64,000 nucleotides of DNA from a virus, in the IMG/VR virus record IMGVR_UViG_3300045988_121676, positions 49,569 through 113,568 of that record; one strand, given 5' to 3'. A program made the translations under genes and the position numbers. This document shows, piece by piece, positions 4,868-56,594 of this stretch; the stretch's first letter is position 1, and each line of letters starts with the position of its first letter. The notes beneath the pieces were generated by a model, which was not told where the DNA came from, searched no databases, and was given only the letters and a program-made list of their open reading frames with translations.

Positions 4868-7144
4868 TTGTCTAAAATATTTATCACTATGGGTGTCAAA
4901 TGTCAGATAGAAAAAAAGGAAAATGAAATAAAACGGGTTAAGGCTCCTAACGGGGAGCCTTCCGTTCTTTACGAAAGTGCTTTAAAAGTATTAGGAAACA
5001 GCGAGCGGGCTCTTCAGGTATGGGCTAAGGCTTACACTCCTGGTTTTTTGTCGTATTACGGTCATTGGAATAACCCGGCTCCAGGGGAGATGTTTGACAC
5101 CGATCCCAATGGCGAACCTCTTTTAGAAGATGTGCTGTCGTATATGAAGCGTCAGACTTATTTTGCTGATCCTTTAACGGCTCAGGATGTTAAGGATGTA
5201 AGAGATGTTATGATATCCAATTCCATATATAGCATACGATCTCTTATTAATAGAGTTAGAAGCTCTTTTTATGTGGATGGCAATCTTATCCTAAATGAAG
5301 AAAATCTAAGAAGATCCGGCTTGTATAATGAGACGGAAATAAGTAGGATATTAGATAATCCTTCTGTATTCAATGAGGTCAGCTCTTTTATGAGGCTATT
5401 ATTAGACTATTCTAATAACGAACACGATCTTGGGAAAGAGTTTTACTTCACAACCGTAGAAAAACCATACGGTCCTGTTGTGTATAAAAAAGGCGTCTTC
5501 AATAAATTAGGAAAGAGAGCATCATACAATCCGGCTGAAGTTTATGAGGCTATAAAAAATACAGTAGGAGGTATTAGTGTTGCTTCAGAGTTTGATGCTG
5601 CTTTCGGATCTTTATCTGATTCATATCCGGAGTTAGTTGAAAGATATCAGTCGGATAAGAGTTTTGCCTTGTCGATGTTCAACGAATTTTCGAATATGAA
5701 CATCGTTCCGGTTGTGGCTTTAGAAGATAATAATATCGTAGAAGGGAAGAGACGGTCATTATCAAAGTTGCAAGATTATGCTTATTACAGCCCTATTGGA
5801 TCTGAGTCATTACGAGCTCGTATATCAGCCTTTCTAAATAGGGTTAATGCTGATACAGAAGAAGACCTTAGAAGTATGATATGGGACGTAGAAGAGGCTT
5901 GTGTGGGTCTTGGTATAGATATCGTAGGCGTGTCTAAGGCATATGACGGAACAGAAGAATCGCTGAATAAAATTGATAGCTTGATGTTGGATCTTGATAT
6001 TTATGTAGCAAGGCGCAACGATGATACTTATGCTCCTACTTTAGCTTCTGCTATTGATGACGTTCTTGGAGATAGCAGGGATCGCCGTGTTATGTTTTTG
6101 CCAGAGTATATGGATAATATGAATATCGTTTATATGGAATCTGACATAGATCCAGTATCGGCATTTGAAAATCATTCTCTGCTTTATCTTGGTGGAAACC
6201 TATATCATAAGGTAGAAAGAGATAATTTAGGTGATTTGTACGATATGGCTGCCGAGCTTGCCAAGCAGAGCCTAACTTATTTCCCACCTGGCATCTATCC
6301 AGAATATTGTTTTAAAGATGGTGTTTTAGATAAGCTCCGCGTGAAAAACGTAGATAGTAAGGCCCTTGCTGATTCTATTAAAAAATACGTCCTGTCTTAT
6401 ACCGATTCTCAGAATACGGAAGAGATGAATGCTACCAGATTGGCGTTTGGTCATCTTGTTATTCCTGAAAGTCCGTATGTTAATGAAGAACGGGAGTTTA
6501 GCCGATACATAAACAGAAAGCAGGACAAAGAGAATCCTTTACTCTTATTCGATTTATACCAATCTTATCTTGAAAATAAGCTTCATAATACGGAAGTGTA
6601 TGAAGGGGCATACAAGTATCTTGACTTTAAACCAGATTATTTGCTGGGTCTTACCGTTTCAGATCCGGATACGTTAAAACAAATTGAACTATCTTTGGCA
6701 GGTAATGATCGTGAACAGCTATTTGAGTATAGCATGAGCAGTACCGATCCTTCTTTTACAGATCTGTTCTATTTGGATTATTATGATATGTTATATGCCG
6801 GTTCTGATTTCTATCACGATCTTTTCACAAAGCATCCTAATCTCTTAAATGAGGTTCGGGATCATAACATAACTAAGCAGGATGGTAATGTTATCGTAGA
6901 AGGGTTGTATAATAATTTTATCAGAATAGGGAACACAGTGTTCACTAAAGTCGGCGAGAGTAGTTCCGGCTCTATCTACCAAAATCTAACAGGAACCGAA
7001 TCGGAGGTGAAATACGATTCTACTCAGAAGGCTAAGACGGTAGAAACTGATTACGCTCCATACCAAAACAGATCTGGCTTGACGCAAGACATGACCGTAA
7101 GCAAGTCTGAATTGGATGATCTTAACAAATTGGAATGCAGGTAA
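4868..7144 (+). CDS. hypothetical large protein (758 aa), probable virion/cargo protein
   Basis: long intact ORF co-oriented with flanking giant genes; no recognisable motif. Confidence 0.7.
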   Translation: MSKIFITMGVKCQIEKKENEIKRVKAPNGEPSVLYESALKVLGNSERALQVWAKAYTPGFLSYYGHWNNPAPGEMFDTDPNGEPLLEDVLSYMKRQTYFADPLTAQDVKDVRDVMISNSIYSIRSLINRVRSSFYVDGNLILNEENLRRSGLYNETEISRILDNPSVFNEVSSFMRLLLDYSNNEHDLGKEFYFTTVEKPYGPVVYKKGVFNKLGKRASYNPAEVYEAIKNTVGGISVASEFDAAFGSLSDSYPELVERYQSDKSFALSMFNEFSNMNIVPVVALEDNNIVEGKRRSLSKLQDYAYYSPIGSESLRARISAFLNRVNADTEEDLRSMIWDVEEACVGLGIDIVGVSKAYDGTEESLNKIDSLMLDLDIYVARRNDDTYAPTLASAIDDVLGDSRDRRVMFLPEYMDNMNIVYMESDIDPVSAFENHSLLYLGGNLYHKVERDNLGDLYDMAAELAKQSLTYFPPGIYPEYCFKDGVLDKLRVKNVDSKALADSIKKYVLSYTDSQNTEEMNATRLAFGHLVIPESPYVNEEREFSRYINRKQDKENPLLLFDLYQSYLENKLHNTEVYEGAYKYLDFKPDYLLGLTVSDPDTLKQIELSLAGNDREQLFEYSMSSTDPSFTDLFYLDYYDMLYAGSDFYHDLFTKHPNLLNEVRDHNITKQDGNVIVEGLYNNFIRIGNTVFTKVGESSSGSIYQNLTGTESEVKYDSTQKAKTVETDYAPYQNRSGLTQDMTVSKSELDDLNKLECR

Positions 7145-7149
7145 TTTTT

Positions 7150-7172
7150 GTATATATATATATATAATATAG
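7150..7172. repeat. (TA)n microsatellite
   Basis: tgtatatatatatatataatata immediately after the 758-aa gene stop. Confidence 0.6.
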
Positions 7173-7196
7173 TTTTTTCATAGTTATAATTTGGGA

Positions 7197-7228
7197 AGTG
7201 AGGCTTGTGAAAGTCTCACTTTTCTTAT
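7197..7228 (+). terminator. rho-independent terminator-like hairpin (8-bp stem, GTGA tetraloop, U-run)
   Basis: tgaggctt-gtga-aagtctca followed by cttttctt, ~50 nt after the stop of the 758-aa gene. Confidence 0.45.
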
Positions 7229-7656
7229 ATATGCACGTATATCAATAACATACAAGAAAAGTTAGATTTTCATTGTTTATGAATTATTTTTGTTAAGTTT
7301 GCAATATTAGTTTCAGGAAGGGATTATGGAAATAAGGAAAAAGCAAGAACCGAACGTAACTAATAACAGTAGGAAATGAGAATCAGTACCATCAAACGTA
7401 ACAACAGCATTCATCTTATGTATAAAAACATTATGAATGATTTAGGTCAATTAAGAACTGTAGTTTCAAAATCCTATATTTATAATCTGATACAAAATCA
7501 AACCGGATTAAGTATCAGAATTATATCCCATGTCTTGAATCACACAAAAGAACAGGATACAGATTCTTTGTGAAAGGCATACATTTTCCTACATTTGTGT
7601 GTTCTTTAGTTTTTAGATTTAAGTTTTTCATGGTATTAGTTTAGATTAGTGTAGAT

Positions 7657-7690
7657 CAGGGCTCGCAGTGATGCGGGCCCTGGTTTGATT
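7657..7690 (+). promoter_or_regulatory. 11-bp stem hairpin with GTGA loop followed by a T-rich tract
   Basis: cagggctcgca-gtga-tgcgggccctg then gtttgattt; a terminator or structured RNA element. Confidence 0.3.
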
Positions 7691-7759
7691 TAAAAAGTAT
7701 TAAAATATTTGCTATTTAAGATCCTGTTCCTATCTTTGTTTCAGAAACAATGAACAACG

Positions 7760-7829
7760 AGATCCCACCTCTGGTTGTTTGATGTTGAAAGATATTTTTG
7801 GCTCATTAGGGTTTGTCATAGTGGGATCT
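7760..7829. promoter_or_regulatory. 9-bp inverted repeat (agatcccac / gtgggatct) spanning the region immediately upstream of the bro start
   Basis: perfect 9-bp arms about 50 nt apart, ending 30 nt before the ATG at 7861; candidate operator. Confidence 0.3.
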
Positions 7830-7860
7830 GACATTCTCTTTTGGGCCTATTTTTTTTATC

Positions 7861-8760
7861 ATGGATAAAGTTTCTGTTTTTGAAAGTTCGGATTTTGGAG
7901 AGCTTAGAATTATTGTAGATCCAAAAGGAGATGTTTGGTTTGTGGCGTCAGATGTGGCTAAATCTCTTGGATATATAAATGCTAAAGATGCGGTAAAAAG
8001 ACATGTAGATGATGATGATTCTATGCTTTTGCAAGTATCTGATAATCAATGGGGCGTAAAACGATCTATATTGAAAACCAGATATATAGATAGTATAAGA
8101 ATAATTAATGAATCTGGTTTATATTCTCTTATATTATCTTCAAAATTAGAGTCTGCTAAGAGATTTAAGAAATGGGTAACATCTGAGGTTCTTCCTTCTA
8201 TTCGTAAAACAGGAGAATACAAAACAAGTTCAGGCGGCAAGGGAATTTTGGTTCCTGACTTTTCTAATCCAGCAGATGCGGCAAGGGCATGGGCTGATCA
8301 GTATGAAGCTGCTCAGAGAGCTATAGCTGAAAAGTCGCAGGCAGAGGCAGAGAAGCAACAAGCCTTGAAAACAATAGAAGAGCATAAACCTGATGTGGAA
8401 TTTGCCGAGTCTTTTAGGAAAGTAGACCATAATAATATGTGGTTGATTCGTGATATTGCTAAAAAGTTAGAACAGAATGGTGTTATTATCGCCGAAAAGA
8501 ATCTTCGATCATTTCTTGAAGAAGCTAAGTTTATGTTTAGAAACGGTCTTGGAAAATGGGAACTATATAGCAATGTTGTAGCTAAAGGATATGGAGTATA
8601 TAGGTCTTATTTTGTTGATAAATATTCTGGTGAAAGAGTTAATCAACAAACTATCTACATGACAGGATCTGGATACGAAGTGACCCTCAATGGCATAAAA
8701 GGAAAACTCAAAAATGTATTTTTAAAATATGGTAAAATTCTACTTGCTTTATGCAGATAG
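7861..8760 (+). CDS. Bro-N domain / KilA-C phage antirepressor family protein
   Basis: N-terminal FGELRIIVDPKGDVWFVASDVAKSLGY is a Bro-N signature; C-terminal ANT/KilA-C-like region. Confidence 0.75.
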   Translation: MDKVSVFESSDFGELRIIVDPKGDVWFVASDVAKSLGYINAKDAVKRHVDDDDSMLLQVSDNQWGVKRSILKTRYIDSIRIINESGLYSLILSSKLESAKRFKKWVTSEVLPSIRKTGEYKTSSGGKGILVPDFSNPADAARAWADQYEAAQRAIAEKSQAEAEKQQALKTIEEHKPDVEFAESFRKVDHNNMWLIRDIAKKLEQNGVIIAEKNLRSFLEEAKFMFRNGLGKWELYSNVVAKGYGVYRSYFVDKYSGERVNQQTIYMTGSGYEVTLNGIKGKLKNVFLKYGKILLALCR

Positions 8761-9577
8761 TCTTTGATCTTGTTATTCCTTTTGTCGGTTAATGACCTTA
8801 TTTGTTTTGAAATCTGTTTATTGTCTTTTAACTTAGATTTTAAGAATGCTAACCTTTTGTTATAATATTGGTTAATAGACTTTAGTGGTCTACCATTGAT
8901 GATAAAACAAGAACCGGTGTTTGAAACACAAGATGCTAAATTATCCAATCCTATGTCGATGCCAAGATAGTTCCCATTATCGGACATAAGATTCTTTTCC
9001 TTCTTATTGTAAACTATTTCAAGAACAATATACCCATTCTTAGGAATGAATCTAAGTTGTTGAATATTTTGCTTGTTAGTTCTTGTTGTAAAGGAAAACT
9101 GTTTTGGTAACTTAACAATGCCTTGTTTTATCCATTTTTGAGAAAAAGCATTTGTTGCAAAAACAGCAGGAAACAAACCACCCTTGTTGAGATACCTTGG
9201 CATTCTTACTTCCTCAGAATACTCACCTCTATTCTTTTTATTAAAGAGATTGAAGAAAGATTTAAAGTTTCTATCAACCATCATCAATACTTGTTGAGCA
9301 ACCGGTGCTGGTAAAGCACCGGTTGCTCAACATCATTTTCTGTTCTTAACTTCTTTTCAAGAGAATAGTAGTTTAGGTACTTATACTTTACAGTATTATC
9401 ATCCTTGTATTGAAAATAATACTGTCTAACAACATATAACCCTTTATTGTATAAGTTTTTACACTTATGCAATAGATCATAAAGTTCATTGTAATAAACA
9501 GAACTTGGTTTGATCGTATGTTGTTCGACTAATCTCATGACACAAATATAGAAATTATTATTTATATATGAAAACAA
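8655..9577 (-). pseudogene. tnpB: decayed TnpB (IS605 OrfB) remnant: N-terminal HTH-like part (9284..9577) plus frameshifted middle part with RuvC-I (8655..9287); C-terminal half absent
   Basis: MRLVEQH..KNLYNKGLYVVRQ and IDIGLDNLA..INQYYNKR..DYLHKAS align to the intact TnpB at 22525..23736; homology stops where the bro gene ends (~8760). Confidence 0.7.
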
Positions 9578-9681
9578 ATTGGCGTATTTGTGGTGTAAAG
9601 TTGTATATAATTACCTAAAGATGTTAAAAATTGGCTCGAATCTTTACCCAAGATCTGAACCTATTTTTTTTCAATACCAGG

Positions 9682-9716
9682 CCCGATGCGATTTTAACGT
9701 ATCGGGTTTTTATTTT
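9682..9716 (+). terminator. terminator-like hairpin (cccgat/atcggg) plus T-run
   Basis: 6-bp stem, 13-nt loop, tttttatttt downstream; lies in the former left-end region of the decayed IS. Confidence 0.3.
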
Positions 9717-10010
9717 AATTCATATTGTTTTATTTTAAATCTAATTAATTCATGAATGTCGTACTTTTGTTGAAAAAGTATTCTATATGGAAAATAAGGA
9801 AGATTACGTTGGTTACGAAGATCAAGAACTGTGTAACCGGTATTACAAAGAGGCTGAAGCCATGAGGCAAAATCAGGACTGGCCTCGGCTTAGGGCTGTC
9901 CCTGCTCCGGCTAAGGGAACGCCATCGCCCGGCTGGGGACAGCTTGGACGTGGAAATGATGTCCGTGTTAAGTATGTTAGCATCAATTCAGGATTAGGAG
10001 GAGATAGGTT

Positions 10011-10226
10011 ATGACTGTAGAAGAATTGGTTAATAAAAGATACGGTGGCGAATTTGTTTTCATGTTTGGTCATCTTGAAGGTAGAACAAGATTCGTTTTT
10101 GAATGCTTTGATCCCAGACCTGATCACGAAGGTAAAAACACTTATATGGTTTCCTATTTTGATAAGGGACTTCGTAGAAGAGATGTGGTAGATGTGCCGT
10201 GTTATATGAATATTTTGCCAAAATAA
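10011..10226 (+). CDS. hypothetical small protein (71 aa)
   Basis: ORF in a co-oriented chain of small island genes. Confidence 0.35.
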   Translation: MTVEELVNKRYGGEFVFMFGHLEGRTRFVFECFDPRPDHEGKNTYMVSYFDKGLRRRDVVDVPCYMNILPK

Positions 10227-10429
10227 TGGAAACATTAATCTTAGATGTACCTGTATTTTCCGGTAAGATTATTTCTCCTATCTGGATTAAAGCCGTAAGA
10301 GATTTTCAATCCAAATCGAAGACAGAAAGAGACTCGTATTGTTTGATTTGTGGATGTACAGGAGGGTGTAACTTGTGCGATGATATAAGTAAATATAGGA
10401 TTTCAGAACAATTAAAATATTACAAATAA
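10199..10429 (+). CDS. hypothetical small Cys-rich protein (76 aa; CLICGCTGGCNLC)
   Basis: ORF whose stop overlaps the start of the downstream Tad2-like gene. Confidence 0.35.
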   Translation: MLYEYFAKIMETLILDVPVFSGKIISPIWIKAVRDFQSKSKTERDSYCLICGCTGGCNLCDDISKYRISEQLKYYK

Positions 10430-11160
10430 TGGAATTAAAAGATTCAGTCAGGGTAATGACTAAAGAAGAGTTCGAATCAGCAATCAACGAAGATATTAAA
10501 TTCGTTGAAGGAATTAAGCATTTTTTTAAACATGATGATGCTACGAGGGTAATGGAACACGTAAAGTCCGTGTTAGAGGCATCAGTAGACTACCACTACC
10601 CGAATCATCCTGAACCTGAAGCAGAACCTGGAGACATGGGAGAGGTTTCTGATGGATACCATACTTTCAATGAATTGTATCGGTACCGCATGTTGTATAA
10701 TGCCGCCTTCTTTAATCTATTAGCCAGAAACGGACAGGTTGAAGTTTGCAAATCAAGGAGACACAGCGATGGAGAAAAATGCTTCGGTTCTGATGATTGG
10801 TTTATTGTGATGGCGATCCTACCTACCGGTCAGGTATCTAATCACTATGAAAGCAAATACTGGGATTTGTTTGATGTTCCTGAAAGAGAAACCGCTTTCG
10901 AATACGATGGCCATACACCAAATGAAGCCTCCGACAGACTTGAAAAGTATCTCAAACTGCCTCGTCATGGCATGACATTCGAACAGGCTTTAGAACGGCT
11001 TAAATTAGGTCGTAAGATAAAAAGAATCGATTGGGGTAAAAAGTATATCTGTATGTTTGACGTAAATATATTGATGATAGATACAGGTCAAAAAGTAGCA
11101 TCAAATTGGAATCCAACCGAACATGATATTATGTCTAATGACTGGGAGATTGCGGGATGA
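10429..11160 (+). CDS. DUF2829 / Tad2-like (Thoeris anti-defence 2 family) domain protein with an unknown N-terminal domain
   Basis: C-terminal MTFEQALERLKLGRKIKRIDWGKK...WNPTEHDIMSNDWEI matches the DUF2829 pattern (F.EAL..LK.GKK..R..W ... W.P...D....DWEI), recognised from memory. Confidence 0.55.
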   Translation: MELKDSVRVMTKEEFESAINEDIKFVEGIKHFFKHDDATRVMEHVKSVLEASVDYHYPNHPEPEAEPGDMGEVSDGYHTFNELYRYRMLYNAAFFNLLARNGQVEVCKSRRHSDGEKCFGSDDWFIVMAILPTGQVSNHYESKYWDLFDVPERETAFEYDGHTPNEASDRLEKYLKLPRHGMTFEQALERLKLGRKIKRIDWGKKYICMFDVNILMIDTGQKVASNWNPTEHDIMSNDWEIAG

Positions 11161-11451
11161 GTTTGTATATCCGAAATAACATTAAAACAATATAATTTTA
11201 TTATAAGGTTTTAATGTACCATAAATGGTCCGGATATTAGCCTAAGCCTTGAAACGAAGGCTACGTTATTTAAGAATAGATAGTTACCTACGGATGTTTA
11301 CCCAAGTCTGTAGCTCTAAGGTAAGTGATTAAACAGTTCTGGTATTCAGGAACGGTGTTGCTTACTAAAAACCTTAAATAACATTGGCGATGGGTACTAA
11401 CAGAGTTTTACTCTGACTTATGTTGAATAAACATTAAAAACGTTTGTAGAT
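11161..11451 (+). ncRNA. candidate IscB omegaRNA (guide expected at the 5' end, scaffold up to the iscB ATG)
   Basis: 291-nt ORF-free, stem-rich interval filling the gap between the Tad2-like stop and the iscB ATG, where IscB omegaRNAs are encoded. Confidence 0.5.
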
Positions 11452-12672
11452 ATGGTGTACGTACAAGACATAAATGGTAAACCTTTGATGCCCACAACAA
11501 GGCATGGTAAGGTAAGACGACTGCTTAAAGACAAAAAGGCAGTCGTTGTAAACCTATGTCCGTTTACCATCAAATTAATGTACGTTACATCTGATTACAA
11601 ACAGGAAATTGTTTTAGGCGTTGATGCTGGAACTAAACATGTTGGTCTATCAGCAACGACGAAAAGCAAAGAACTTTACAGCAGTGAAGTAATTCTTAGA
11701 AATGATATCGTAGATCTTTTGTCTACCAGAAGAGAGCTACGGAAAGCAAGACGGAACAGGTTAAGATATAGAAAACCTCGTTTTGATAACAGAGTAAAAA
11801 GCAAGCGTCCAGGATGGATAGCACCTTCGGTGAAATACAAAGTAGACGCCCATATTCGTGTTGTTGAAAATGTTTGCTCTATATTACCAATATCTCGTAT
11901 TGTTATTGAAGTAGCTCAATTCGATACTCAAAAGATTAAGAATCCTGAAATATTAGGTAAAGAATACCAGGAAGGTGATCAACTTGAGTTTTGGAACACA
12001 AGGGAGTATGTTTTAGCAAGAGATGGACATAAATGTCAGTATTGTAAAGGAAAGTCAAAAGATTCTATACTGAATGTTCATCATATTGAGTCTCGAAAAA
12101 CCGGAGGGGATTCCCCTTCTAATCTTATAACTTTATGTGAAACCTGTCATAAGGAATACCATAAAGGTAATATAGATTTAAAGATCAGAAGAGGCAAGTC
12201 GCTTCGCGACGCAGCCGTAATGGGAATTATGAAATGGAGGTTGTATGAAGAGTTAAAATCCAGATACGACAGAGTTTTTATGACGTTTGGTTACATTACG
12301 AAACATAATCGGATTAAATATGGGATTGAAAAATCCCATACATCCGACGCGTTTGTCATTTCTAAGAATATTAATGCGAAACGAATCGAACGTCAATATT
12401 TAAAACGTTTAATTCGTAGACATAATAGACAAATACATAAAATGAAAATTTTAAAAGGGGGGAAGAAGAAAAACAATCAAGCTCCTTTTGAGGTTTTCGG
12501 TTTTAGGTTGTTTGATAAAGTGTTGTATAACAATAAAATATTCTTTGTTTATGGAAGGAGAAAATCAGGGAGTTTCAATATCAGGGATTTCAACGGAGAA
12601 AATTCAAAAGATGTTTCACGCAAAAAGTTTAAACTCATTAGAGGGAAGAGGCATCCGATTATATTAAAGTAA
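11452..12672 (+). CDS. iscB: IscB, OMEGA RNA-guided RuvC/HNH nuclease (Cas9 ancestor)
   Basis: N-terminal PLMP motif (GKPLMPT), RuvC-I GVDAGTKHVGLS, Arg-rich bridge helix RRELRKARRNRLRYRKPRFDNR, RuvC-II IVIEVAQFD, HNH CQYC..NVHHIESRKTGG..CETCH, RuvC-III HTSDAFVIS; 406 aa. Confidence 0.9.
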   Translation: MVYVQDINGKPLMPTTRHGKVRRLLKDKKAVVVNLCPFTIKLMYVTSDYKQEIVLGVDAGTKHVGLSATTKSKELYSSEVILRNDIVDLLSTRRELRKARRNRLRYRKPRFDNRVKSKRPGWIAPSVKYKVDAHIRVVENVCSILPISRIVIEVAQFDTQKIKNPEILGKEYQEGDQLEFWNTREYVLARDGHKCQYCKGKSKDSILNVHHIESRKTGGDSPSNLITLCETCHKEYHKGNIDLKIRRGKSLRDAAVMGIMKWRLYEELKSRYDRVFMTFGYITKHNRIKYGIEKSHTSDAFVISKNINAKRIERQYLKRLIRRHNRQIHKMKILKGGKKKNNQAPFEVFGFRLFDKVLYNNKIFFVYGRRKSGSFNIRDFNGENSKDVSRKKFKLIRGKRHPIILK

Positions 12673-12709
12673 ATGAACGGATTTAATAAATTTAATAGAA
12701 AAACGTATC

Positions 12710-13015
12710 ATGTATAATAAAGAAATAGTAATATGCGCGGCCATCTGGGTGCAGGACGGCAAGAAGCGTCCTCATCAGCCCACCAATATACCATCCGGCG
12801 CCGTATTTTGTGGATTGAGACATTGTTCTATCATTTCTCAGTTTGCGGCATACGGTATAGCTCATAAAAACCGCAGTGTTCAAGGATTTTTGACAAGCAA
12901 GAACCGGTTTCTGACGAGAGAAGAAGCGTCTGAGCTTGTTAAGAACAATAATCAGGAGATGGTAGTAGATAGGAATGCTATTAGAGAACAATTGTATTCA
13001 GAAGATTTATATTAA
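12710..13015 (+). CDS. hypothetical protein (101 aa)
   Basis: ORF 37 nt after the iscB stop; no stretch I can place with confidence. Confidence 0.45.
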   Translation: MYNKEIVICAAIWVQDGKKRPHQPTNIPSGAVFCGLRHCSIISQFAAYGIAHKNRSVQGFLTSKNRFLTREEASELVKNNNQEMVVDRNAIREQLYSEDLY

Positions 13016-13032
13016 CTAAAAAACAAAACAAC

Positions 13033-13308
13033 ATGGGGTTTAAAATCAAAAAGTCAATCATTTATAATATGATGAACGGCAATCAGTTAGAGTATGTATT
13101 TGACAACATTAATTTAGATCATATCACATTTAAAGGTAATGGTAAAGAATCTTTTTCATTTAACAGAGCCCTTGTTGAAAATTTAATTGAGACATTTGAT
13201 ACTATGCAGGATATATACTCTGATAATTACGGAATTAAGGTTTATACCGGTAATTGCATAATTCAACTGAATGTAAATCCAAAGAACTTAAGTGAATCCT
13301 TTTTTTGA
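13033..13308 (+). CDS. hypothetical protein (91 aa)
   Basis: co-oriented ORF in the island. Confidence 0.4.
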   Translation: MGFKIKKSIIYNMMNGNQLEYVFDNINLDHITFKGNGKESFSFNRALVENLIETFDTMQDIYSDNYGIKVYTGNCIIQLNVNPKNLSESFF

Positions 13309-13443
13309 CGTATATGATAGAGATGAGATGAAATTGATATATAGTATAAAAAATAGTATCTTGAAAGAAATGTTTATCATATGATTACCAAGCAGGACAT
13401 ATCATAAAAAATGGCGGAATTGAACTATTTAAACAAATAATAA

Positions 13444-13477
13444 AGTCGGGTACGTAAGTTATCCGACTTTTTTTTAT
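13444..13477 (+). terminator. rho-independent terminator (agtcgg/ccgact stem + T8)
   Basis: 6-bp stem, 13-nt loop, eight Ts. Confidence 0.5.
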
Positions 13478-13486
13478 ATTTGTGGC

Positions 13487-13810
13487 ATGGCAAGAGGTTA
13501 TTATTGGATACCGCAGACAGATGAAACGTTAAATGGCAGAAGCTATTACGTGGCTAAGATAGTAGGAGATATCACGTTTGATACTAAACGAAAAAGAATC
13601 GTATTTCAAGCTGATAGGTATTTCCCTGTAGGATCTGTTTTCCATTTTACGCACAATTGCTTCAACTATATCATAACTTGCCGACTTCGTAAGCCGGGGC
13701 TTTGGTTTGAAGCCAGAAGAGAGGATTCGGGCCCTATTTGCCCTGAAGATATTGAGCGCTTTGAATCGGGAAGGTTTATACACCGAGATGGGTACATGCA
13801 TTACATATAA
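13487..13810 (+). CDS. hypothetical protein (107 aa)
   Basis: ORF bounded by terminators. Confidence 0.4.
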   Translation: MARGYYWIPQTDETLNGRSYYVAKIVGDITFDTKRKRIVFQADRYFPVGSVFHFTHNCFNYIITCRLRKPGLWFEARREDSGPICPEDIERFESGRFIHRDGYMHYI

Positions 13811-13814
13811 GCCG

Positions 13815-13852
13815 AACTTGACAATTGGCGTCAAGTTATAATTATTTTTTTT
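13815..13852 (+). terminator. rho-independent terminator (aacttgac/gtcaagtt + T-run); a second hairpin aagctatc/gatagctt at ~13865-13904
   Basis: 8-bp stems followed by T tracts, just after the 107-aa ORF. Confidence 0.45.
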
Positions 13853-13925
13853 CATATCATTTTTAAGCTATCAGACTGAGAAGTTAGATAGCTTTATTTT
13901 TTATGATATGCTTGATTTTTAACTA

Positions 13926-13940
13926 CCTTTGTCTTATAAC
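13926..13940 (+). promoter_or_regulatory. candidate Bacteroidota-type -7 box (TAccTTTG matches TAnnTTTG) for the 2140-aa gene
   Basis: tacctttg about 22 nt upstream of the ATG at 13955; no Shine-Dalgarno present. Confidence 0.25.
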
Positions 13941-13954
13941 AAAAATGTTTTACT

Positions 13955-16900
13955 ATGACATCAACGTGTATTATTAAAAGAGATAATAGAAAGAAAGTTG
14001 TTTCTGTCTCTACCAGATCAGGGGACAGGTCTATGTTGTTTGATAAAATAGCATCTATTCCTCTTATGGAGAATAGGGAACGGGCTACTACTGTTTTTAA
14101 AACCGTATTTTCTAATAAGTTCTTAAAGGCTTTTGGCGACTGGAGAAAGAGAGTGCCTATCAATAAACAGGCCTACAATAAGGTGAAATCCAACATCTAT
14201 CTTATTCCGGAAGCTTATAGAGAAAGGGTGCTGGATAAGGCTTCTAAGATGAGTAATCCTGTTCTTGTATCAAAATCAGATGCACCTTATGGGATTCAAG
14301 AATCAGGCTTCGGATTCTATAGCCAAGATCTGGGTGATAATATTATGTTGGTGGATGCTATGGTTCCGTCAAGTATTTCCGTACCGGAAGGACCTGGAAT
14401 AGACGCCGGACAGTATCTACAAGATGCTATATCTTCGGACTTTACTCCCGTATTTATGGTACAGGATAAGGGTGTTAATTATATGGTTATAAAAGACGGT
14501 CTTAAGATATTTAGCCCAGAAGAGTTACCAGAAACAGATTCTAATCCTGTGGGTGTAACGTATCAGACCGGAGAGCCTCGTTTGTTTTTCATGAACGATC
14601 GTAATCAATTATTTGAAGATTACGGAGAAGCTCTTCGCTCTGGCGGGAATGATATTAGAATAGGATTCTTATCCGGCACCGTTCAAGAATCTACCGTGGA
14701 TGGCGTGGCAGACATTACTTACAAGGCTGGAAAGTATGTTCTTAATAATCCCAAGTCTTTTATACCGGTCATGACCGCTTCTGCTTCTACTTCTTTATCA
14801 ACGAAAGGCGGGATAATTAACTACCTTATAAAGAAAGGTCTTTTGTCCGGATCCAAGATATTCGATCCTGAAACAAGGAGCTATTATCTTACAGGAGAAG
14901 GACATACAGGACAAATTAGACTTTTCAATTCAGCATTATCCTACACCGAGCTCCGTAATCATTTTGGTTCCGATGTTTCCATGAACGACCAAGGTATGAT
15001 AACCATAAGCTCGTTGGATAATAGTAAGGTAACTATGAGGCTCGCTACCGGAGGAACGGAGAGGGTTAGCAAGGAGCAGATAAAGAACGATCTCAAGTCA
15101 GGAAGATACAATGAATTGGATGCTAAGTACGATCATTTTGATGCGCTTGTAGTTTCATTCATATTAGAAGACAACGATCTTTATGCTGATACTAAAGCTA
15201 AGATCGTATCAGATTATAGCAGGCAGGAACGTGATCAACGAAATTCTATTGTCGAGATACTGAAAACGCTTGGCGTTAGTGTCATAGGTATGACCGATTA
15301 TATAGAGAAGTACCAAACCAAATACGGGCATGAACCTTCTGCTAAGGCATTGGCGGATATTGCTAATAACGTAATAGCAGTTGGTGAAGATGCTACTTTA
15401 TCTGATTTAGTAGAAGAAACAGCCCACTTCCTTGTAGAGGCATACAGAGATCAGAATGCTGTTGAGGCTGTTCTGCAAGATGTGGAAGGTACGGAAGAGT
15501 GGAACCAATATGCAGGTCAGTATTATAATACATACGGTAAAGTATATGAAGGAGCTGAGCTTGATAATGCTGTTAGGAGAGAAATTCTTGGAAAGATCCT
15601 CGCCAGGGAGATGCAGACCGGCACAGCACAGGCGCCGGTAGAGCCCACCTCCTTCCTGGGGCGCGTCCGGCAGCTTTTCTCTGGAATCGTAAGCTGGCTT
15701 AAATCAGCTTTATCAACCCAAAGACAAGATTTGAATAACGTTATTAAAAACATTCGTGATCTTGCCATTACTGACATAGATAAAGGATTTGACACCTCTC
15801 TGTTAAAGGATAATGACTTTACATTATACTCCCTTTCTTCTATGAACAAGAACAAGTTTCTTGAGTCCAAGATCAGATCACTAAGAAAAACATTAAGAGA
15901 CTTACGTCAGATAAGCTCTGATAGGGCTGTAACTACGTCTATGACCCTTGCTCAGCTTAAGACCATAGAAGATAAGATAAATAAGGTAGAGACCGAAATA
16001 GACAAGAATGAGATGGCGGCTGCCATGAACAGCATGATCTCCACAGCCGAAGCTCAGGTCAGATACTTAAGTAATGTGGTGAACACCATCCTTCATGGTG
16101 ATACCAAAGACGGTAAGCTTCACTTCAATACCAATGATCGAAAGAACGTAGATATTATCAACAATCAGGTTCTTCCGATCATGAACGATCTTCGAGGATA
16201 TATCCGTAACAGAAGTACCGAATTTGATGAACGTGAAAAGCAGGATTATACAAATAGGATCAATACCGTCATTGCCGACATCAATGGTATTCAGTCTGAT
16301 ATTAAATCAGTACAAGACCTTGATGAAAGTACGTTGCTTGATAAGTTAATGAACGAACTTCATGTGCCGGCAGATAAGGTAAAGAGAGTAAAAGAATTTT
16401 TTGACAAGGTTCAACACGATGTTTCTTGGATAAGTAGGTGGTTTGGTATATTAGAGCATTCTTCCAGTCCGTTCAATAACGCTCTTGGAGCTATGATTGC
16501 CAAAGACAATTACAATGCGATGGTGAATGCCCAGCCCGCCATATCCGACTTCCTGGCATATGCGAAAAAGCATGGTTTTAACAAATCTGAATTTGAAAAA
16601 CTGCTTCAGAAAGTAGACGGCAAAACTTCTAATTACCTTCGTAGTGCTCTTGATATGGCTAAATACGATCGTAATAAGAAGCTGGCGCAGATGCGAGCGT
16701 TTGCGACTGCCATGAACATAGAGATATCAGAAGAAGAAATTGGTGATGTGGTTGACAATAACCGTAATTACGTATTTAAAAGAGAAGTAGTTGACAAGGA
16801 TGGAAATACGGTTACTGAAAACGCTAAATTCAAACCATCGTCTGATAGAGTTAATACCGATATTTTTACCATCGAGCAGGAAAAGATCTATACAGAGCAG

Positions 16901-19900
16901 ATGGAAAAGTGGGATGCTGAAAATTCGGAACTGGAATTTAGTGAAAGTTATGCCACAAGAATGGAATCCATATACAAAAAGGCTGAAGAAGAATTAGGGC
17001 ATCCAGTTTCTCAAACAACTAAAGAATATCTTAATGCTCTTTCCCGGCAAAAACGAATACTGAGGCAGCCTTTTATTGATAGCGGTGGTAATTTTGATGA
17101 GGTTGCTTACTATAAGAGTAGTAACTACGAAGAAGAAGGACTGCTTCGTAAACAACGTAAGGAAGCAGCTTCGGAATACATATATGTTGGTACCAGACGT
17201 GTTGAAAAAACCGGCGACCAACTTAAGATGGCTAAAGAAATACAAGCCATAAATGAAGTTTGGAGAAAAGAATCAAATAATGTCACTAATGCCGTATCAG
17301 AATCATTTTTGGAAAGATTGAGAACGATTCAGCGTGAGTCTGGAGGAGAAGCTGCGCTGAAGACACTTATGTTGGGAGGTCACCTGTCATTTAATGATCG
17401 GTTTTGGAATGATGTAGAATCGGAACAGTCGGCACGTACCGAATCAAATAACAAGGCTTCGTATCTCAAAATGGCGCATGATATCATTAGTTCTACAACA
17501 AGTGATAGAGATGCGACTGACGTGGATTCTATTGTGAAAGATATAGAAAAAAATAAGGCTATTATCAAGGAAATAATCGGAAACAATCGCGATGTGGCTG
17601 ATATCGGAGAGATTAACGAAGCGACATTTACCTCATCTGAAAGAGATGCTTTTAGGGCCGCATCTGAAGCTATTGAAGCCGATTACGCTATTTTGATAGA
17701 TTATGCTAAGATGGTGGGTCTTGAAGATATTGATAAGTACCTTACTAAAAGCAGTAAGGCTGAAAACGAAGTAAATCAGTCTTATTTAAATGCTCTTGCT
17801 GACTCCAAGGAAGTGGAATGGAAGTTCGTACAACGTCATACTACGGCGAAGAAAGCAAAAAGGATTCAGGCTTTAAGGGATAAGCTGTTTGAGGCTGCTG
17901 ATAACCGATATTTGTTTACCGTATCTGAAACCAACTACCTGTCAGAAAAGCTTGGTATAAGCAAAGAATTAGACGGTAGAGATTTTAGGAATGCTGTTAA
18001 TGCTAAGATGGCCAGCTTGTTTTTAAATAATACAAGAGAAGAGGGCATAGAAGAAGCTAATGCTATTGTTAACGAATTTGCCAGGAGCCAGGTCTTTTCG
18101 TACTATAAACGCATGGCGCCTACCGGATATGCGGCTATGATCGACAAAATAGGTCGAGGTGAGATAGATGTGGCGCAGATGGTTAAGGACGTACAAAACG
18201 GTACATCCACCCAAGATTATGGCATGGACATATCGTACCTGTCTTTCGACCCTGCAAGGGCATGGGTGGCTGAATCTGAAGCCGAAAATAGCGGCCGTAA
18301 TCCTGATTATGTAAAAGATCATGGGTATGGTCATCGAATGCCTAAGAAAAGCCTATATCGTGATGAATCGTATTTCAATGACTTTGGTATCAAGTATGAT
18401 GCTGACGGTAATGAAGTTGCTACTAAAAACGTAGAGCAGTGGAATATGATTCAAAAACTCAAGGAAATAAAAAGACAATCCCTTGATCTATACAAAGAGC
18501 AGAGCCCGAACCTGTATGCTATTCCACAGATATCAAAACAAGACATAGAACGTATGGAAGGATTGGGTATTAACTTCAAAAATACGGTTCGTAATTTTGT
18601 ATCAGATCTGTGCCTGGACAGAGTAGACGATTCTCTATACGGTAAAACCAGGCAAGGAGAAGTGTATGATCCGGAAGACAGACTTAGGTCTATACCCAAA
18701 TACTACATATATGAATTGGAGAACCAAGATGATGTATCTCACGATTTTGGCTACTCTTATTCTATGCTTATGATGCAGTCATCGTTATATAACGAAAAGC
18801 AGAAGTCTATAGAGCTTGCCCAAGGACTGGAGCAGATGTTACTGAATAAACAATTTGAAGGCGGTAAGAAGGCTGAAGCAACCCAAGCATATCAGATGTT
18901 CAGGGACTTCTTCAACGATCATTATTATGGCATTAGGATGAACACCAAAAAACTTACGGTGAACATCGGAGGATATACGGTAGACCTTACAAGAATTATG
19001 ATGGCTGTTGAAAGATTTATGTCGGTCATGAACTTGGCACTGTCTCCGTTTGTGGCAGCTACCGGCGCCCTGACAGGTCATATCAACCTCATCATGGAAT
19101 CTGCCGTAGGACAGTATATAAGCAAAGACTCCCTTAAATACGCATCGGCTGAATTTTCACGCCTTGCTCCATCTTGTATAGCAGAAACCGGAGACATAGA
19201 TAGGAAAAGCAAATTATATGTCATAGGTGAGAGAATGGGGATATTCAATATCCGAAATCGTATGTATGGTGCCGGATACAATAGAGTGGCCAGGACCTTA
19301 ATGCGTTCACCTATGTATGCTTTTATGGAAATCCTGAACTACCCTCTTGATCCGCAGGTTATGATTGCTACTATGGACAATGTTCGTTATTACAAAGGCC
19401 GGTTCTACACGTTCCAAGATTTCAAGATGGAAAAAGAACGCAATAAAGAACAGAGTACCATAAAAAGAGAATGGAATGCATTAAAAGATCGTACTTTATG
19501 GAGTATGGTAGATGTCGTGGATGGGAAGGTGGTTGTAAAGCCCGGATCAGGTGTTACTGTTGAGGAAGTTGAAACCCAGATGGCTATAACCAGGAATCAA
19601 GTCCGTAGCTTGTCGCAGATATGTAACGGATCTTTGAATGAAGAAAACCGAACTGCCGCATCGCGCAACTGGATAGCCAGGTTCATGACCGCCCACCGAG
19701 GCTGGCTGGTGCTGGCAGCTCAACGTCTGTGGAAAAGACGTGGCTTCAATTTCCAGACAATGCAAGAAGAGGAAGGGTTGTCAATTACGTTAAAGAATAT
19801 GATAGCCAAAACATTTAGCCTGGCTTCCGAGTCTGGTATGAAAAACATCATAGATGCCTGGAACGAAAATAAAGACAATATGAATGAGGTAGAAAAAACT

Positions 19901-22440: not shown

Positions 22441-22524
22441 CGTGTGCGGAGAATGAGGCTGGTGAGGGGTGCCACATTTTGGACATACGAGTTGGTAATT
22501 ATATACAAGTTTACACCTGTAATA
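22400..22524 (-). ncRNA. expected position of the TnpB right-end omegaRNA (reRNA) tail and guide-adjacent segment
   Basis: 84-nt non-coding gap after the tnpB stop, where IS605 reRNAs end; structure not verified. Confidence 0.25.
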
Positions 22525-23736: not shown

Positions 23737-23768
23737 GCTGCAAACATAAATAGAATATTTTAAATACG

Positions 23769-25431: not shown

Positions 25432-25438
25432 ATCGTTA

Positions 25439-53460: not shown

Positions 53461-53476
53461 TATCAGCCATTATAAC

Positions 53477-54286: not shown

Positions 54287-54297
54287 GTCTTTATATT

Positions 54298-54756: not shown

Positions 54757-54759
54757 TTT

Positions 54760-55074: not shown

Positions 55075-55081
55075 ATACTAA

Positions 55082-55777: not shown

Positions 55778-55827
55778 ATTGTTTTATTTATAGATTAAAA
55801 TTCAGCAATATAACTATATACATAATT

Positions 55828-56583: not shown

Positions 56584-56594
56584 GATTTATTTCT

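What the first reader, a model, noticed from the sequence alone, without database searches (positions are those of the whole stretch)
7145..13954. A 6.8-kb accessory island splitting the giant-protein block
Three giant co-oriented ORFs (>1398, 758 and 2140 aa) form what is normally a contiguous virion/cargo block. They are separated by an island packed with mobile-element and moron-type genes and bounded by terminator hairpins at 7197, 13444 and 13815. Its contents are a Bro-N antirepressor, a TnpB relic, six small ORFs, a DUF2829/Tad2-like protein and IscB with its RNA. This is the architecture of phage anti-defence/moron islands. The small ORFs at 10011-10429 and 12710-13810 are therefore prime candidates for new anti-defence proteins.
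Basis: inference. Interest (0 to 1): 0.7.

Follow-up and report, generated by a model that had tools for sequence, protein, structure and literature searches.

The report
Variable gene island in gut phage
A 6-kb stretch between the giant virion-protein genes of a ~150-kb human-gut phage is a dispensable, heavily reshuffled cassette region, and in this copy it has been cut down and remodelled by two RNA-guided-nuclease transposons (a dead TnpB and an intact IscB), with no direct evidence that its small genes block bacterial defences.

Summary
Every listed item sits at the stated coordinates: Bro-N/KilAC, a broken TnpB, seven small ORFs, WDGH+Tad2-like, HEARO/ωRNA plus IscB, and three hairpins.

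The island is accessory. Among 72 relatives with both flanks it ranges from 641 bp to 9.8 kb, in 68 gene orders. One natural variant joins window 7217 to 13377. A distant relative, Cellulophaga phage phi17:2, has the three giant genes adjacent with a single small ORF between them.

Two corrections apply. o107 (13487-13810) is present in all 72 complete relatives, so it is core. o65 is nearly universal.

The window's island is a reduced version:
- A 3.7-kb deletion fuses Bro to the middle of TnpB.
- IscB+ωRNA replaces a 91-aa zinc-finger gene.
- A further 458 bp is missing.

The IscB unit (11167-12672) is a non-autonomous IS605-family element followed by ATGAA, the reverse complement of TTCAT. 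Across relatives its ωRNA end is joined to at least 12 different upstream sequences in the island. In element-free siblings, 11 of 13 such sites continue with ATG, so the guides change and upstream genes are lost.

The anti-defence reading is untested. Only the truncated Tad2-like domain supports it. I rate this a new member of a known kind, of moderate interest.

The parts
4868..7144 (+). 758-aa virion-block protein; left flank of the island
   Evidence: ORF. Weak homology to phi17:2 gp038, a virion structural protein (E 5e-5). Relatives carry two allele classes, about 96% and about 70% aa identity, next to near-identical islands.
7193..7224 (+). Terminator-like hairpin after the 758-aa gene. 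The left edge of the dispensable segment lies inside it: the L026 deletion starts at 7217.
   Evidence: 14-bp stem, -19.2 kcal/mol, near full-length match in 68 relatives. L026 junction.
7376..7573 (+). o65, a small conserved gene that is nearly core. Two TAnnTTTG motifs lie 74-83 nt upstream.
   Evidence: Present in 71 of 79 relatives with pN/pS 0.15. Motifs. No family match.
7861..8760 (+). Bro-N + KilAC (ANT) antirepressor-type gene. The last 2 residues are replaced by a 7-residue tail created by the deletion junction.
   Evidence: Pfam and PHROGs. C-terminal comparison. Present in 32 of 79 relatives. In others the same slot holds an AntA+T5orf172 gene or a third, small unannotated ORF family (f42).
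8734..8739 (.). Junction of a 3,705-bp deletion relative to L071/L045, with a 6-nt overlap. It removed about ten genes (f2 to f6), the TnpB C-terminus and the TnpB ωRNA/right end.
   Evidence: blastn break points. Against csAssE-Sib, 880 bp here replace 3,245 bp.
8740..9615 (-). TnpB relic: about 268 of 407 codons plus the left end of a 1,348-bp TnpB element that has about 26-bp imperfect terminal inverted repeats
9292..9332 (.). Perfect 18-bp palindrome inside the TnpB relic. An imperfect palindrome in the intact gene was made perfect (+2 nt), which breaks the frame.
   Evidence: Alignment to the intact L018 TnpB. Repeat I6. No full-length match in relatives.
9787..10014 (+). o75, a small gene. 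A TAnnTTTG motif lies 17 nt upstream and hairpin 9679-9709 precedes it.
   Evidence: 67 of 79 relatives, pN/pS 0.10.
10011..10226 (+). o71, a small gene. It contains one of the alternative IscB junction sites (10046-10061, followed by ATG).
   Evidence: 61 of 79 relatives, pN/pS 0.19. Junction of L041/L071/L096.
10226..10429 (+). o76, a small Cys-rich gene (67 aa from the ATG). It is variable.
   Evidence: 21 of 79 relatives, pN/pS 0.25.
10429..11160 (+). 243-aa WDGH + short Tad2-like (DUF2829) protein
   Evidence: Pfam. Alignment to SPO1 Tad2 (8sme) covers residues 5-34 and 60-89 only. Present in 46 of 79 relatives, with alleles from 185 to 298 aa.
11151..11166 (+). Guide-equivalent 16 nt upstream of the ωRNA scaffold (TGCGGGATGAGTTTGT). 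It is 4 nt (TTGT) short of the canonical junction.
   Evidence: No ATG-adjacent target in IMG/VR.
11167..11401 (+). ωRNA (HEARO) scaffold. Its true 5' end is at 11167, which is the element's right end.
   Evidence: Rfam hit at 11192-11401. The P1 helix pairs 11167-73 with 11232-38 and shows compensatory changes in other copies. Homology between copies stops at exactly this base.
11452..12672 (+). IscB, 406 aa, apparently intact (PLMP, RuvC D58, HNH HH210-211, RuvC-III)
   Evidence: pN/pS 0.15 over 38 distinct alleles.
12673..12677 (+). ATGAA, the reverse complement of TTCAT. This is the transposon-adjacent motif next to the element's left end.
   Evidence: Sequence. Constant right junction. 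GstIscB TAM TTCAT in Meers et al., bioRxiv 10.1101/2023.03.14.532601.
12710..13015 (+). o101, a member of a widespread phage family of unknown function (phrog_839; PF26092 in a precomputed table)
   Evidence: AF2 model pLDDT 89.5. No PDB match. BFVD hits to uncharacterised phage proteins and polyvalent-protein domains.
13033..13308 (+). o91, 91 aa here against a modal 116 aa. The adjacent genes f5 and f22 (458 bp in Sib) are missing.
13442..13470 (+). Terminator-like hairpin with a T-run; it ends the variable unit
   Evidence: Retained in the minimal variant L026.
13487..13810 (+). o107, a conserved beta-barrel protein that is part of the core block, not the island
13815..13837 (+). Hairpin after o107. 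A TAnnTTTG motif at 13924 lies 23 nt before the 2140-aa gene.
13955..20377 (+). 2140-aa virion structural protein; right flank of the island
   Evidence: phrog_37651, 1.2e-77. phi17:2/phi4:1 virion structural protein, 22% identity over 87% of the length, E 1e-68.

Best explanation
Window 7218-13376 is a dispensable, recombination-prone cassette region. It sits at a transcription-unit boundary inside the virion-protein gene block of a ~150-kb human-gut phage. The nearest named relative is csAssE-Sib. The phage is distantly related to Cellulophaga Lightbulbvirus and, in part, to crAss-like phages.

The lineage's usual island is about 7-9 kb with about 22 small genes in a loosely conserved order. 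Individual genomes differ in three ways: allele swaps by homologous recombination, microhomology deletions, and the activity of IS605-family transposons that carry RNA-guided nucleases.

The window carries a reduced version:
1. One 3.7-kb deletion fused the Bro gene to the middle of a TnpB element. A palindrome-perfecting frameshift had also hit that element.
2. A non-autonomous IscB+ωRNA element (11167-12672, TAM ATGAA at 12673) occupies the place of a 91-aa zinc-finger gene.
3. A further 458 bp (two genes) is gone.

In the population, the ωRNA end of this IscB element has repeatedly been re-joined to new sites up to 1.1 kb upstream. Each new site lies directly 5' of an ATG (CAT on the transposon strand). 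The TAM-side junction stays fixed. Each event deletes the DNA in between, including Tad2-like, o76 and o71, and installs a new guide that matches element-free siblings.

The most likely route (inferred) is TnpA-type target choice supplied in trans. This could be a short hop followed by recombination between the two direct copies, or a one-ended reaction.

The small genes are real, selected genes of unknown role. o107 belongs to the core block.
For: Shown directly:
- Island length is 641-9,767 bp in 72 complete relatives, with 68 gene orders in 73 islands.
- Minimal variant L026 joins 7217 to 13377.
- phi17:2 has the homologous giant genes adjacent.
- The window differs from Sib by four indels inside the island.
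- The deletion junction at 8734-8739 and the chimeric Bro tail, and the palindrome frameshift.
- IscB is intact and under selection.
- The ωRNA 5' end at 11167 is supported by P1 covariation.
- There are 14 junction types. In 11 of the 13 that have element-free counterparts, the empty site continues with ATG. P = 1e-15 against the ATG frequency, and P = 3.5e-5 even given the shared AT.
- The right junction ATGAA|AACGG is constant.
- The TAM equals the GstIscB TTCAT, and the ωRNA is bounded by the IS right end (paper).
- A Y1 TnpA plus TnpB element occurs in a more distant relative phage.
- At least three other TnpB families occur in the island of relatives, in both orientations.
- IscB-linked divergence is confined to the first ~100 nt of o101, which points to intense recombination.
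- pN/pS is 0.10-0.34 for all the small genes.
Against: - No TnpA is present in the 64-kb window. No genome with two tandem IscB copies in the island was seen, so the hop-and-recombine intermediate is inferred.
- The window's own guide is out of register with the ATG, and no target for it exists in IMG/VR. This particular copy may therefore be unable to cut siblings.
- The relatives are metagenome-assembled contigs. The viability of the short-island variants is assumed.
- The island is not the only variable region: other indels against Sib occur at 22.5, 25.4, 43-44, 49 and 53-57 kb.
- Nothing here tests what the small genes do.
Confidence: 0.75

Rival explanations
1. One reading: this is an anti-defence/moron island whose small ORFs (o71, o76, o101, o91, o107) encode new inhibitors of bacterial immunity.
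For: - A Tad2-like (DUF2829) domain scores above the Pfam threshold. Four of the five Tad2 homologs tested in Yirmiya et al., bioRxiv 10.1101/2023.05.01.538930, inhibited Thoeris.
- The genes are small, selected, and variably present among close relatives.
- The o101 fold recurs as a domain in 'large polyvalent proteins' of phages.
- Promoter-like and terminator-like signals flank the units.
Against: - Only one gene has any anti-defence link. Its domain lacks the central ~25 residues of SPO1 Tad2 and is fused to a WDGH domain.
- o107 is core, not accessory.
- No other known anti-defence family turned up among the 10 consensus island families of relatives that were scanned.
Confidence: 0.3
2. 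IscB acts as an RNA-guided homing nuclease between co-infecting phages. It cuts element-free alleles at the guide-matching site next to ATG and is copied in by recombination. On this view the observed junction spectrum reflects selection for guides that have a usable TAM, not TnpA target choice.
For: - The guides of 11 junction types match sibling islands perfectly and lie next to ATG.
- IscB is under strong purifying selection.
- IscB and the 91-aa gene behave as alternative alleles with shared flanks.
- There is a short IscB-linked tract in o101.
- Non-restorative transposon homing has been proposed in a review for phages and plasmids (PMC13565253).
Against: - The same pattern arises by construction from TnpA-type insertion next to a TAM.
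- Only 7 of 79 relatives keep a full IscB in the island and 6 hold 5'-truncated fragments, which argues against an efficient drive.
- The window's own guide is out of register.
Confidence: 0.3
3. The alternative junctions are ordinary random deletions by 2-nt (AT) microhomology that happen to end at the element.
For: - The element starts with AT, and every junction can be drawn with a shared AT.
- Other deletions do end inside the element: L011, L021, L023, L024 and L019.
Against: - At least 12 in-island junction types end at exactly the same base of the element.
- The base after AT in the empty site is G in 11 of 13 cases, although the element itself has A there (P = 3.5e-5).
Confidence: 0.1
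4. The island is conserved core content with structural roles.
For: - o107 and o65 are near-universal.
- A loosely conserved gene order exists across relatives.
Against: Every gene between 7218 and 13376 is absent from some relatives that have 95-98% identical flanks. L026 lacks them all. phi17:2 has no island.
Confidence: 0.05

Closest known systems
IS200/IS605-family non-autonomous IscB (OMEGA) elements, e.g. ISGst IscB of Geobacillus stearothermophilus (Meers et al. 2023) and OgeuIscB (PDB 7utn/7xht)
   Same: - IscB has PLMP, RuvC and HNH.
- A HEARO ωRNA lies upstream on the same strand, and its 5' end is the transposon right end.
- The guide is taken from the flank.
- A TTCAT-type TAM abuts the other end.
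- There is no tnpA in cis.
- The element has the same orientation as the upstream gene.
   Different: - It lives in a lytic-type phage genome and is abundant there: 342 hits in IMG/VR, and several genomes carry two copies.
- One locus shows a series of at least 12 alternative guide-side junctions with a fixed TAM-side junction, each tied to loss of the neighbouring genes.
- The first ωRNA hairpin is longer than in the Rfam model.
Phage hypervariable / accessory ('moron', anti-defence) regions, e.g. the anti-Gabija locus of SPbeta-like phages (Yirmiya et al.)
   Same: - It occupies a fixed position between conserved genes.
- It holds small genes of unknown function that vary among close relatives.
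- The units have their own promoter-like and terminator-like signals.
- One member has an anti-defence domain.
   Different: - Only one anti-defence-linked domain is present.
- Much of the variation is loss, driven or accompanied by IS elements.
- The island sits inside the giant virion-protein block.
Free-standing homing endonuclease loci of T-even phages (SegF, MobE; intronless homing)
   Same: - A nuclease gene alternates with an unrelated small gene at the same site between conserved neighbours.
- Only a short linked tract accompanies it.
- Decayed copies are frequent.
   Different: Target recognition would be by RNA guide plus TAM. Cleavage and biased inheritance have not been shown.
Tad2 (SPO1 Gp34.65, PDB 8sme), the anti-Thoeris gcADPR sponge
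   Same: The DUF2829 domain is recognised by Pfam. The N- and C-terminal segments align.
   Different: - The domain is 62 aa against 89 aa, and the central ~25 residues are missing.
- It is fused behind a WDGH domain in a 243-aa protein.
- Binding has not been tested.

Membership tests
IS200/IS605-family IscB (OMEGA) element | IscB protein with PLMP, split RuvC and HNH | tested here: met
   NCBIfam guided_IscB equivalog, 359 bits against a 175 cut-off. Pfam RRXRR + HNH. OgeuIscB, E 8.6e-42, with the D, E, HH and RuvC-III motifs aligned. D58 and HH210-211 located.
IS200/IS605-family IscB (OMEGA) element | HEARO/ωRNA directly upstream on the same strand | tested here: met
   Rfam RF02033, 107.7 bits against 83, full model length.
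IS200/IS605-family IscB (OMEGA) element | The ωRNA scaffold begins at the transposon end and the guide lies in the flank | tested here: met
   Copies are homologous down to 11167 and differ upstream, giving 14 junction types. The P1 helix starts at base 1 of the element and has compensatory pairs.
IS200/IS605-family IscB (OMEGA) element | TAM abutting the opposite (left) end, shared with insertion-site choice | tested here: met
   ATGAA (reverse complement TTCAT) follows the element. 11 of 13 empty sites continue with ATG. The use of this motif by the enzymes themselves was not tested.
IS200/IS605-family IscB (OMEGA) element | Y1 TnpA transposase in the element (autonomous form) | tested here: not met
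   There is no TnpA in the element or in the 64-kb window, so the element is non-autonomous, as most IscB elements are. A TnpA was seen in a distant relative phage.
IS200/IS605-family IscB (OMEGA) element | RNA-guided DNA cleavage | not testable with these tools
   Requires a biochemical or plasmid-interference assay.
Tad2 anti-Thoeris sponge | DUF2829/Tad2-like domain | tested here: met
   PF11195, 43.3 bits against 25, profile positions 1-72 of 73.
Tad2 anti-Thoeris sponge | Complete ~89-aa single-domain architecture | tested here: not met
   The protein is 243 aa with a WDGH domain. Its alignment to 8sme covers residues 5-34 and 60-89 only.
Tad2 anti-Thoeris sponge | Binds gcADPR and rescues phage from Thoeris | not testable with these tools
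   -
Phage anti-defence island | Clustering of two or more recognised anti-defence genes | tested here: not met
   Only the Tad2-like domain was found. The other window genes and 10 consensus families from relatives show no such match.
Phage accessory / hypervariable region | Presence/absence polymorphism among close relatives at a fixed position between conserved genes | tested here: met
Moron | Own promoter and terminator | tested here: inconclusive
   8 of the 9 TAnnTTTG motifs lie in about 1 kb of intergenic DNA just upstream of genes, and hairpins are present. These are motif matches only.
TnpB (functional) | Full RuvC plus zinc-ribbon and a 3' ωRNA | tested here: not met
   Only residues 1-71 and 74-268 of 407 remain. 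The frame is broken at the palindrome, and the 3' end and ωRNA are deleted.
Homing endonuclease locus | The nuclease's target is present in element-free alleles | tested here: inconclusive
   True for 11 junction types. Not true for the window's own guide. Biased inheritance was not tested.

The most novel reading that the evidence does not exclude
In this gut-phage lineage, IscB elements may work as RNA-guided homing nucleases in phage-against-phage competition. They would re-arm themselves by TAM-directed re-joining of their ωRNA end to nearby upstream sites. Each such event gives a new guide against element-free siblings and deletes neighbouring accessory genes. IS605-family elements would then be a main engine of turnover in the phage's accessory island.
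Probability: 0.3. Interest if true: 0.75.

Novelty: new member of a known kind. Interest (0 to 1): 0.5.

Why it matters
For phage biology, this marks a clear, naturally dispensable site inside the virion-gene block of an abundant ~150-kb gut phage group. It also separates the truly variable genes from a conserved small gene, o107, that a screen for accessory functions should not include.

For transposon and genome-editing biology, it offers a natural population series. A single IscB element at one locus shows a dozen guide variants, all obeying an ATG/TTCAT-type TAM rule. Decayed copies and intact TnpB relatives sit nearby. This is ready material for testing whether OMEGA nucleases home between co-infecting phages, and how guides are renewed without a transposase in cis.

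Tried and rejected
- **ωRNA 5' end.** I first took it from Rfam (11192). I rejected that: the first helix was poorly paired in that alignment, and comparison plus covariation place it at 11167.
- **o65 and the 91-aa gene as paralogues.** I first read them that way. This was a clustering artefact caused by a fusion ORF in L055.
- **Microhomology alone for the junctions.** Rejected because of the excess of G after AT.
- **A natural target for the window's guide next to ATG.** None in IMG/VR.
- **PDB fold search for o101.** No significant match.
- **Sequence link between o107 and phi17:2 gp037.** None.
- **PDB sequence search with the 2140-aa protein.** None.
- **Literature.** Nothing relevant for 'csAssE' and nothing for 'WDGH domain'.
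- **Hairpin conservation by blastn-short.** Unreliable for the two short AT-rich hairpins at 13442 and 13815. A fuzzy-regex version timed out.
- **Bacterial source of the IscB.** The nearest hit is an 86% copy on a 20-kb 'Vibrio olivae' contig whose flanks match phage loci, which is probably phage DNA. The next is 69% in a Phocaeicola MAG. No clear donor emerged.

Full report
**What is in the sequence.**
The flanks are three co-oriented giant ORFs: 70-4266, 4868-7144 and 13955-20377. Between them lie:
- o65 (7376-7573);
- a Bro-N + KilAC protein (7861-8760);
- a frame-broken TnpB on the minus strand (8655-9577);
- o75, o71 and o76 (9787-10429);
- a WDGH + Tad2-like protein (10429-11160);
- a HEARO RNA (Rfam 107.7 bits, 11192-11401);
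- IscB (11452-12672);
- o101, o91 and o107.

IscB matches the NCBIfam equivalog 'RNA-guided endonuclease IscB' (359 bits) and OgeuIscB structures (E 8.6e-42). Terminator-like hairpins lie at 7193-7224, 13442-13470 and 13815-13837, with 10 hits in the region against 3.5 +/- 2.0 in shuffles. GC content does not set the island apart sharply.

**What the phage is.**
The nearest GenBank record is phage csAssE-Sib (OR575929.1, 151 kb, human gut), at 86-97% nucleotide identity. The 2140-aa protein matches phrog_37651 'virion structural protein'. It also matches the virion structural protein of Cellulophaga phages phi17:2 and phi4:1 (22% identity over 87% of its length, E 1e-68), and in part proteins of crAss-like phages.

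In phi17:2 the homologues are adjacent: gp039 for the >1398-aa ORF (E 4e-13), gp038 for the 758-aa ORF (E 5e-5) and gp036 for the 2140-aa ORF. Only a 119-aa ORF sits before gp036.

**Is the island accessory?**
A scan of IMG/VR with the 758-aa protein returned 80 loci, each with up to 10 kb of flank.
- In 72 loci with both flanks, the distance between the giant genes runs from 641 to 9,767 bp (median 7.3 kb). Some truncated loci exceed 10 kb.
- There are 68 different gene orders among 73 islands.
- L026 joins window-equivalent 7217 directly to 13377 and keeps only o107. Intermediate sizes of 1.5, 2.3, 2.8, 2.9 and 3.2 kb also occur.

The modal order is o65 - [Bro | AntA+T5orf172 | a third small ORF family, f42] - f2 - f20 - f16 - f15 - f7 - f9 - f8 - f6 - [TnpB] - o75 - o71 - [o76] - [f31] - Tad2-like - [91-aa zinc-finger gene | IscB] - o101 - o91 - f5 - f22 - o107.

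Gene frequencies among 79 relatives:

| Gene | Relatives carrying it |
|---|---|
| o107 | 74 (all 72 complete islands) |
| o65 | 71 |
| o75 | 67 |
| o71 | 61 |
| o91 | 56 |
| o101 | 55 |
| Tad2-like | 46 |
| Bro | 32 |
| o76 | 21 |
| TnpB (407-aa family) | 20 |
| Full IscB | 7 |
| IscB fragments | 6 |

The segment 7218-13376 is therefore dispensable in nature, while o107 with its flanking hairpins and promoter-like motif belongs to the conserved block. All the small ORFs are under purifying selection (pN/pS 0.10-0.34), so they are real genes.

**Recombination.**
The 758-aa gene has two allele classes, about 96% and about 70% aa identity to the window. Both sit next to islands and 2140-aa genes that are 95-100% identical to the window. 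This puts a recombination boundary at the island's left edge. Downstream of IscB, IscB-bearing loci differ from the rest only in the first ~100 nt of o101: 92.9% within the group against 80.1% between groups. Beyond that the two groups cannot be told apart. Linkage therefore decays within about 100 nt.

**The window's island is a reduced derivative.**
- Against csAssE-Sib there are four indels inside the island: 880 bp against 3,245 bp, 187 against 52, 1,540 against 266, and 38 against 458.
- Against L071 and L045, a single 3,705-bp deletion with a 6-nt overlap at 8734-8739 joins the Bro gene, two codons before its stop, to the middle of the TnpB gene. It removes about ten genes, the TnpB C-terminus and its ωRNA.
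- The remaining TnpB also carries a +2 frameshift. An imperfect palindrome of the intact gene (GTTGACTATCGTGCT...AGCACCGGTTGCTCAAC) has become a perfect 18-bp palindrome at 9292-9332.
- The intact element in relatives is 1,348 bp with about 26-bp imperfect terminal inverted repeats. It occurs in both orientations and at other sites.
- Relatives also carry at least two further TnpB families in the island (379 aa and 380 aa), plus fragments of others.

**The IscB element.**
In element-free relatives, 275 bp between the Tad2-like gene and o101 encode a 91-aa zinc-finger protein (phrog_11861). In the window, 1.5 kb replaces it.

*Left boundary.* All copies are homologous down to ATATCCGAAATAAC at 11167 and differ upstream of it. 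Rfam starts the RNA at 11192 but pairs the first helix poorly. Folding and comparison show that helix P1 is 11167-11173 paired with 11232-11238, enclosing a long first hairpin (11179-11218) and a second one (11220-11231). Other copies keep P1 through compensatory changes: T-A to A-T, C-G to T-A, and G-C to C-G. The scaffold therefore begins exactly at the element's end and the guide is the flanking 16 nt. This is the published geometry, with the ωRNA bounded by the IS right end (Meers et al., bioRxiv 10.1101/2023.03.14.532601).

*Right boundary.* The element ends at the IscB stop codon (12672) and is followed by ATGAA. This is the reverse complement of TTCAT, the TAM reported for G. stearothermophilus IscB in the same paper.

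*State of the protein.* IscB is intact, with D58, HH210-211 and the RuvC-II/III motifs. It is strongly constrained, with pN/pS 0.15 over 38 distinct alleles. The family is abundant in IMG/VR, with 342 hits and several ~150-kb contigs carrying two copies at different sites.

**Guide turnover by nested re-joining.**
Across the loci there are 14 junction types on the ωRNA side. At least 12 of them lie in this island and share the same TAM-side junction (ATGAA|AACGGATTTAAT, just upstream of o101). Mapped onto the window, the alternative junctions fall at 11166, 11156, 11073, 11052, 11048, 10792, 10669, 10225 and 10061. Each therefore removes part or all of the Tad2-like gene, o76 or o71.

For 13 types, element-free siblings contain the same 16-18-mer. 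In 11 of these the sibling continues with ATG (ATGAT, ATGGT, ATGTT, ATGCT, ATGAG or ATGAA). The chance of this is 1e-15 from the ATG frequency. It is 3.5e-5 even after allowing for the AT shared with the element's first two bases.

This is the target rule of IS200/IS605 insertion, 3' of the TAM on the transposon strand. I therefore infer TnpA-type chemistry supplied in trans. No TnpA is in the window, but a Y1 TnpA plus TnpB element occurs in a more distant relative phage. The route could be a short hop followed by recombination between the two direct copies, or a one-ended reaction. I could not tell these apart, and I saw no two-copy intermediate.

Other copies are decayed by deletions that run into the element (L011, L021, L023, L024), or by an inverted duplication that replaces the ωRNA 5' end (L019, L022, L095).

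**The window's own guide.**
The canonical junction at this site is GAGTTTGTTTGT|ATATCC (L083, L089, L090, L129), which matches siblings that read ...GTTTGTTTGT|ATGTTC. The window, L034 and L072 lack one TTGT. Their guide, TGCGGGATGAGTTTGT, is followed in siblings by TTGTATG or TTGTTTG rather than ATG. The guide placed next to ATG has no match in IMG/VR. A second type, L087, likewise equals a canonical junction minus CTGT. I have no explanation for these two 4-nt losses.

**Function of the genes.**
- *Tad2-like protein.* The Tad2-like domain is the only link to anti-defence. It aligns with SPO1 Tad2 (PDB 8sme) over residues 5-34 and 60-89 only, and it follows a WDGH domain. Four of the five Tad2 homologs tested in the original study inhibited Thoeris, but this architecture is untested.
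- *o101.* It belongs to a conserved family with invariant RH, QGFLTS and SEDLY motifs, phrog_839 and PF26092 in a precomputed table. A confident model (pLDDT 89.5) has no PDB match. It does match uncharacterised phage proteins and domains of 'large polyvalent proteins'.
- *Other small ORFs.* o65, o75, o71, o76 and o91 match nothing.
- *Promoter-like motifs.* The Bacteroidota-type -7 motif TAnnTTTG occurs 9 times on the plus strand of 7001-14100. Eight of these lie in about 1 kb of intergenic DNA just upstream of o65, Bro, o75, o107 and the 2140-aa gene. This fits separate transcription units and a Bacteroidota host. Both points are inference.

**Verdict.**
- o107 is not accessory.
- 'Anti-defence' rests on one atypical domain.
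- The mobile elements are the most informative part rather than relics.

As a kind of thing, both the island and the IscB element are new members of known kinds. The population series of guide-changing junctions at one locus is the part a specialist would find worth following.

Noticed in passing
window 22525-23736 (minus strand); insertion 22503-23777 relative to csAssE-Sib: A second TnpB, apparently intact (403 aa, 42% identical to the island's TnpB family). It is present in the window but absent from Sib.
   Followed up: partly
window 53105-56883: 3.8 kb with six or seven minus-strand ORFs (104-269 aa) replaces 237 bp of csAssE-Sib. This is another variable cassette region.
   Followed up: no
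window ~25431-25450 against Sib 113300-114435: Sib carries a DNA (cytosine-5)-methyltransferase gene (1.1 kb) that the window lacks.
   Followed up: no
window 4868-7144 and loci L046-L081: The 758-aa virion-block gene exists as two allele classes (~96% and ~70% aa identity). Both sit next to near-identical islands and 2140-aa genes, so there is a sharp recombination boundary at about 7145-7375.
   Followed up: partly
window 9292-9332: An imperfect palindrome in the TnpB gene has been made perfect (18-bp arms, +2 nt). This looks like a template-switch mutation and breaks the reading frame.
   Followed up: yes
L019/L022/L095, ωRNA 5' end: The first ~26 nt of the ωRNA are replaced by an inverted copy of downstream sequence (CTAATATCCGGACCATAAATGGTCCGGATATTAG). 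This is a second palindrome-making event that disables an OMEGA part.
   Followed up: partly
window 11163-11166; L087 junction: Two independent junction types equal a canonical TAM-adjacent junction minus exactly 4 nt (TTGT, CTGT) at the guide-scaffold border. This puts the guide out of register with the ATG.
   Followed up: partly
window 13398-13412 and 13896-13910: A perfect 15-nt inverted repeat (CATATCATAAAAAAT / ATTTTTTATGATATG) flanks the conserved o107 cassette.
   Followed up: no
window 9568-9583 and 10048-10063: A 16-nt inverted match (94%) links the TnpB leader and the o71 site (GCGAATTTGTTTTCAT) that serves as an IscB junction in L041/L071/L096. It may be chance.
   Followed up: no
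proteins P0006, P0017, P0032, P0043, P0054 and others: Public protein sets contain many o101 fusions with IscB (PF14239), TnpB zinc-ribbon (PF07282) or Bro-N (PF02498) pieces. These are traces of further deletions in this island in the wider population.
   Followed up: no
L184/L186 13277-14843: A more distant relative phage (o107 homologue 53% identical) carries an autonomous IS605-type pair, Y1 TnpA plus TnpB. In that phage the giant gene lies on the opposite strand to the o107 homologue.
   Followed up: partly
L161 ('Vibrio olivae' NZ_JBHMEP010000019.1, 20-kb contig): It holds an 86%-identical IscB with the same flanks as phage loci L113-L116. This is probably phage DNA in a bacterial assembly rather than a bacterial copy.
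   Followed up: no
window 7285-7800, 9762, 13475, 13924: TAnnTTTG (Bacteroidota -7 promoter motif) is concentrated in the intergenic DNA of the island, about 13 times the window average per kb. The same TATATTTGTG(G/T)CATG string precedes the start codons of both o107 and TnpB.
   Followed up: partly
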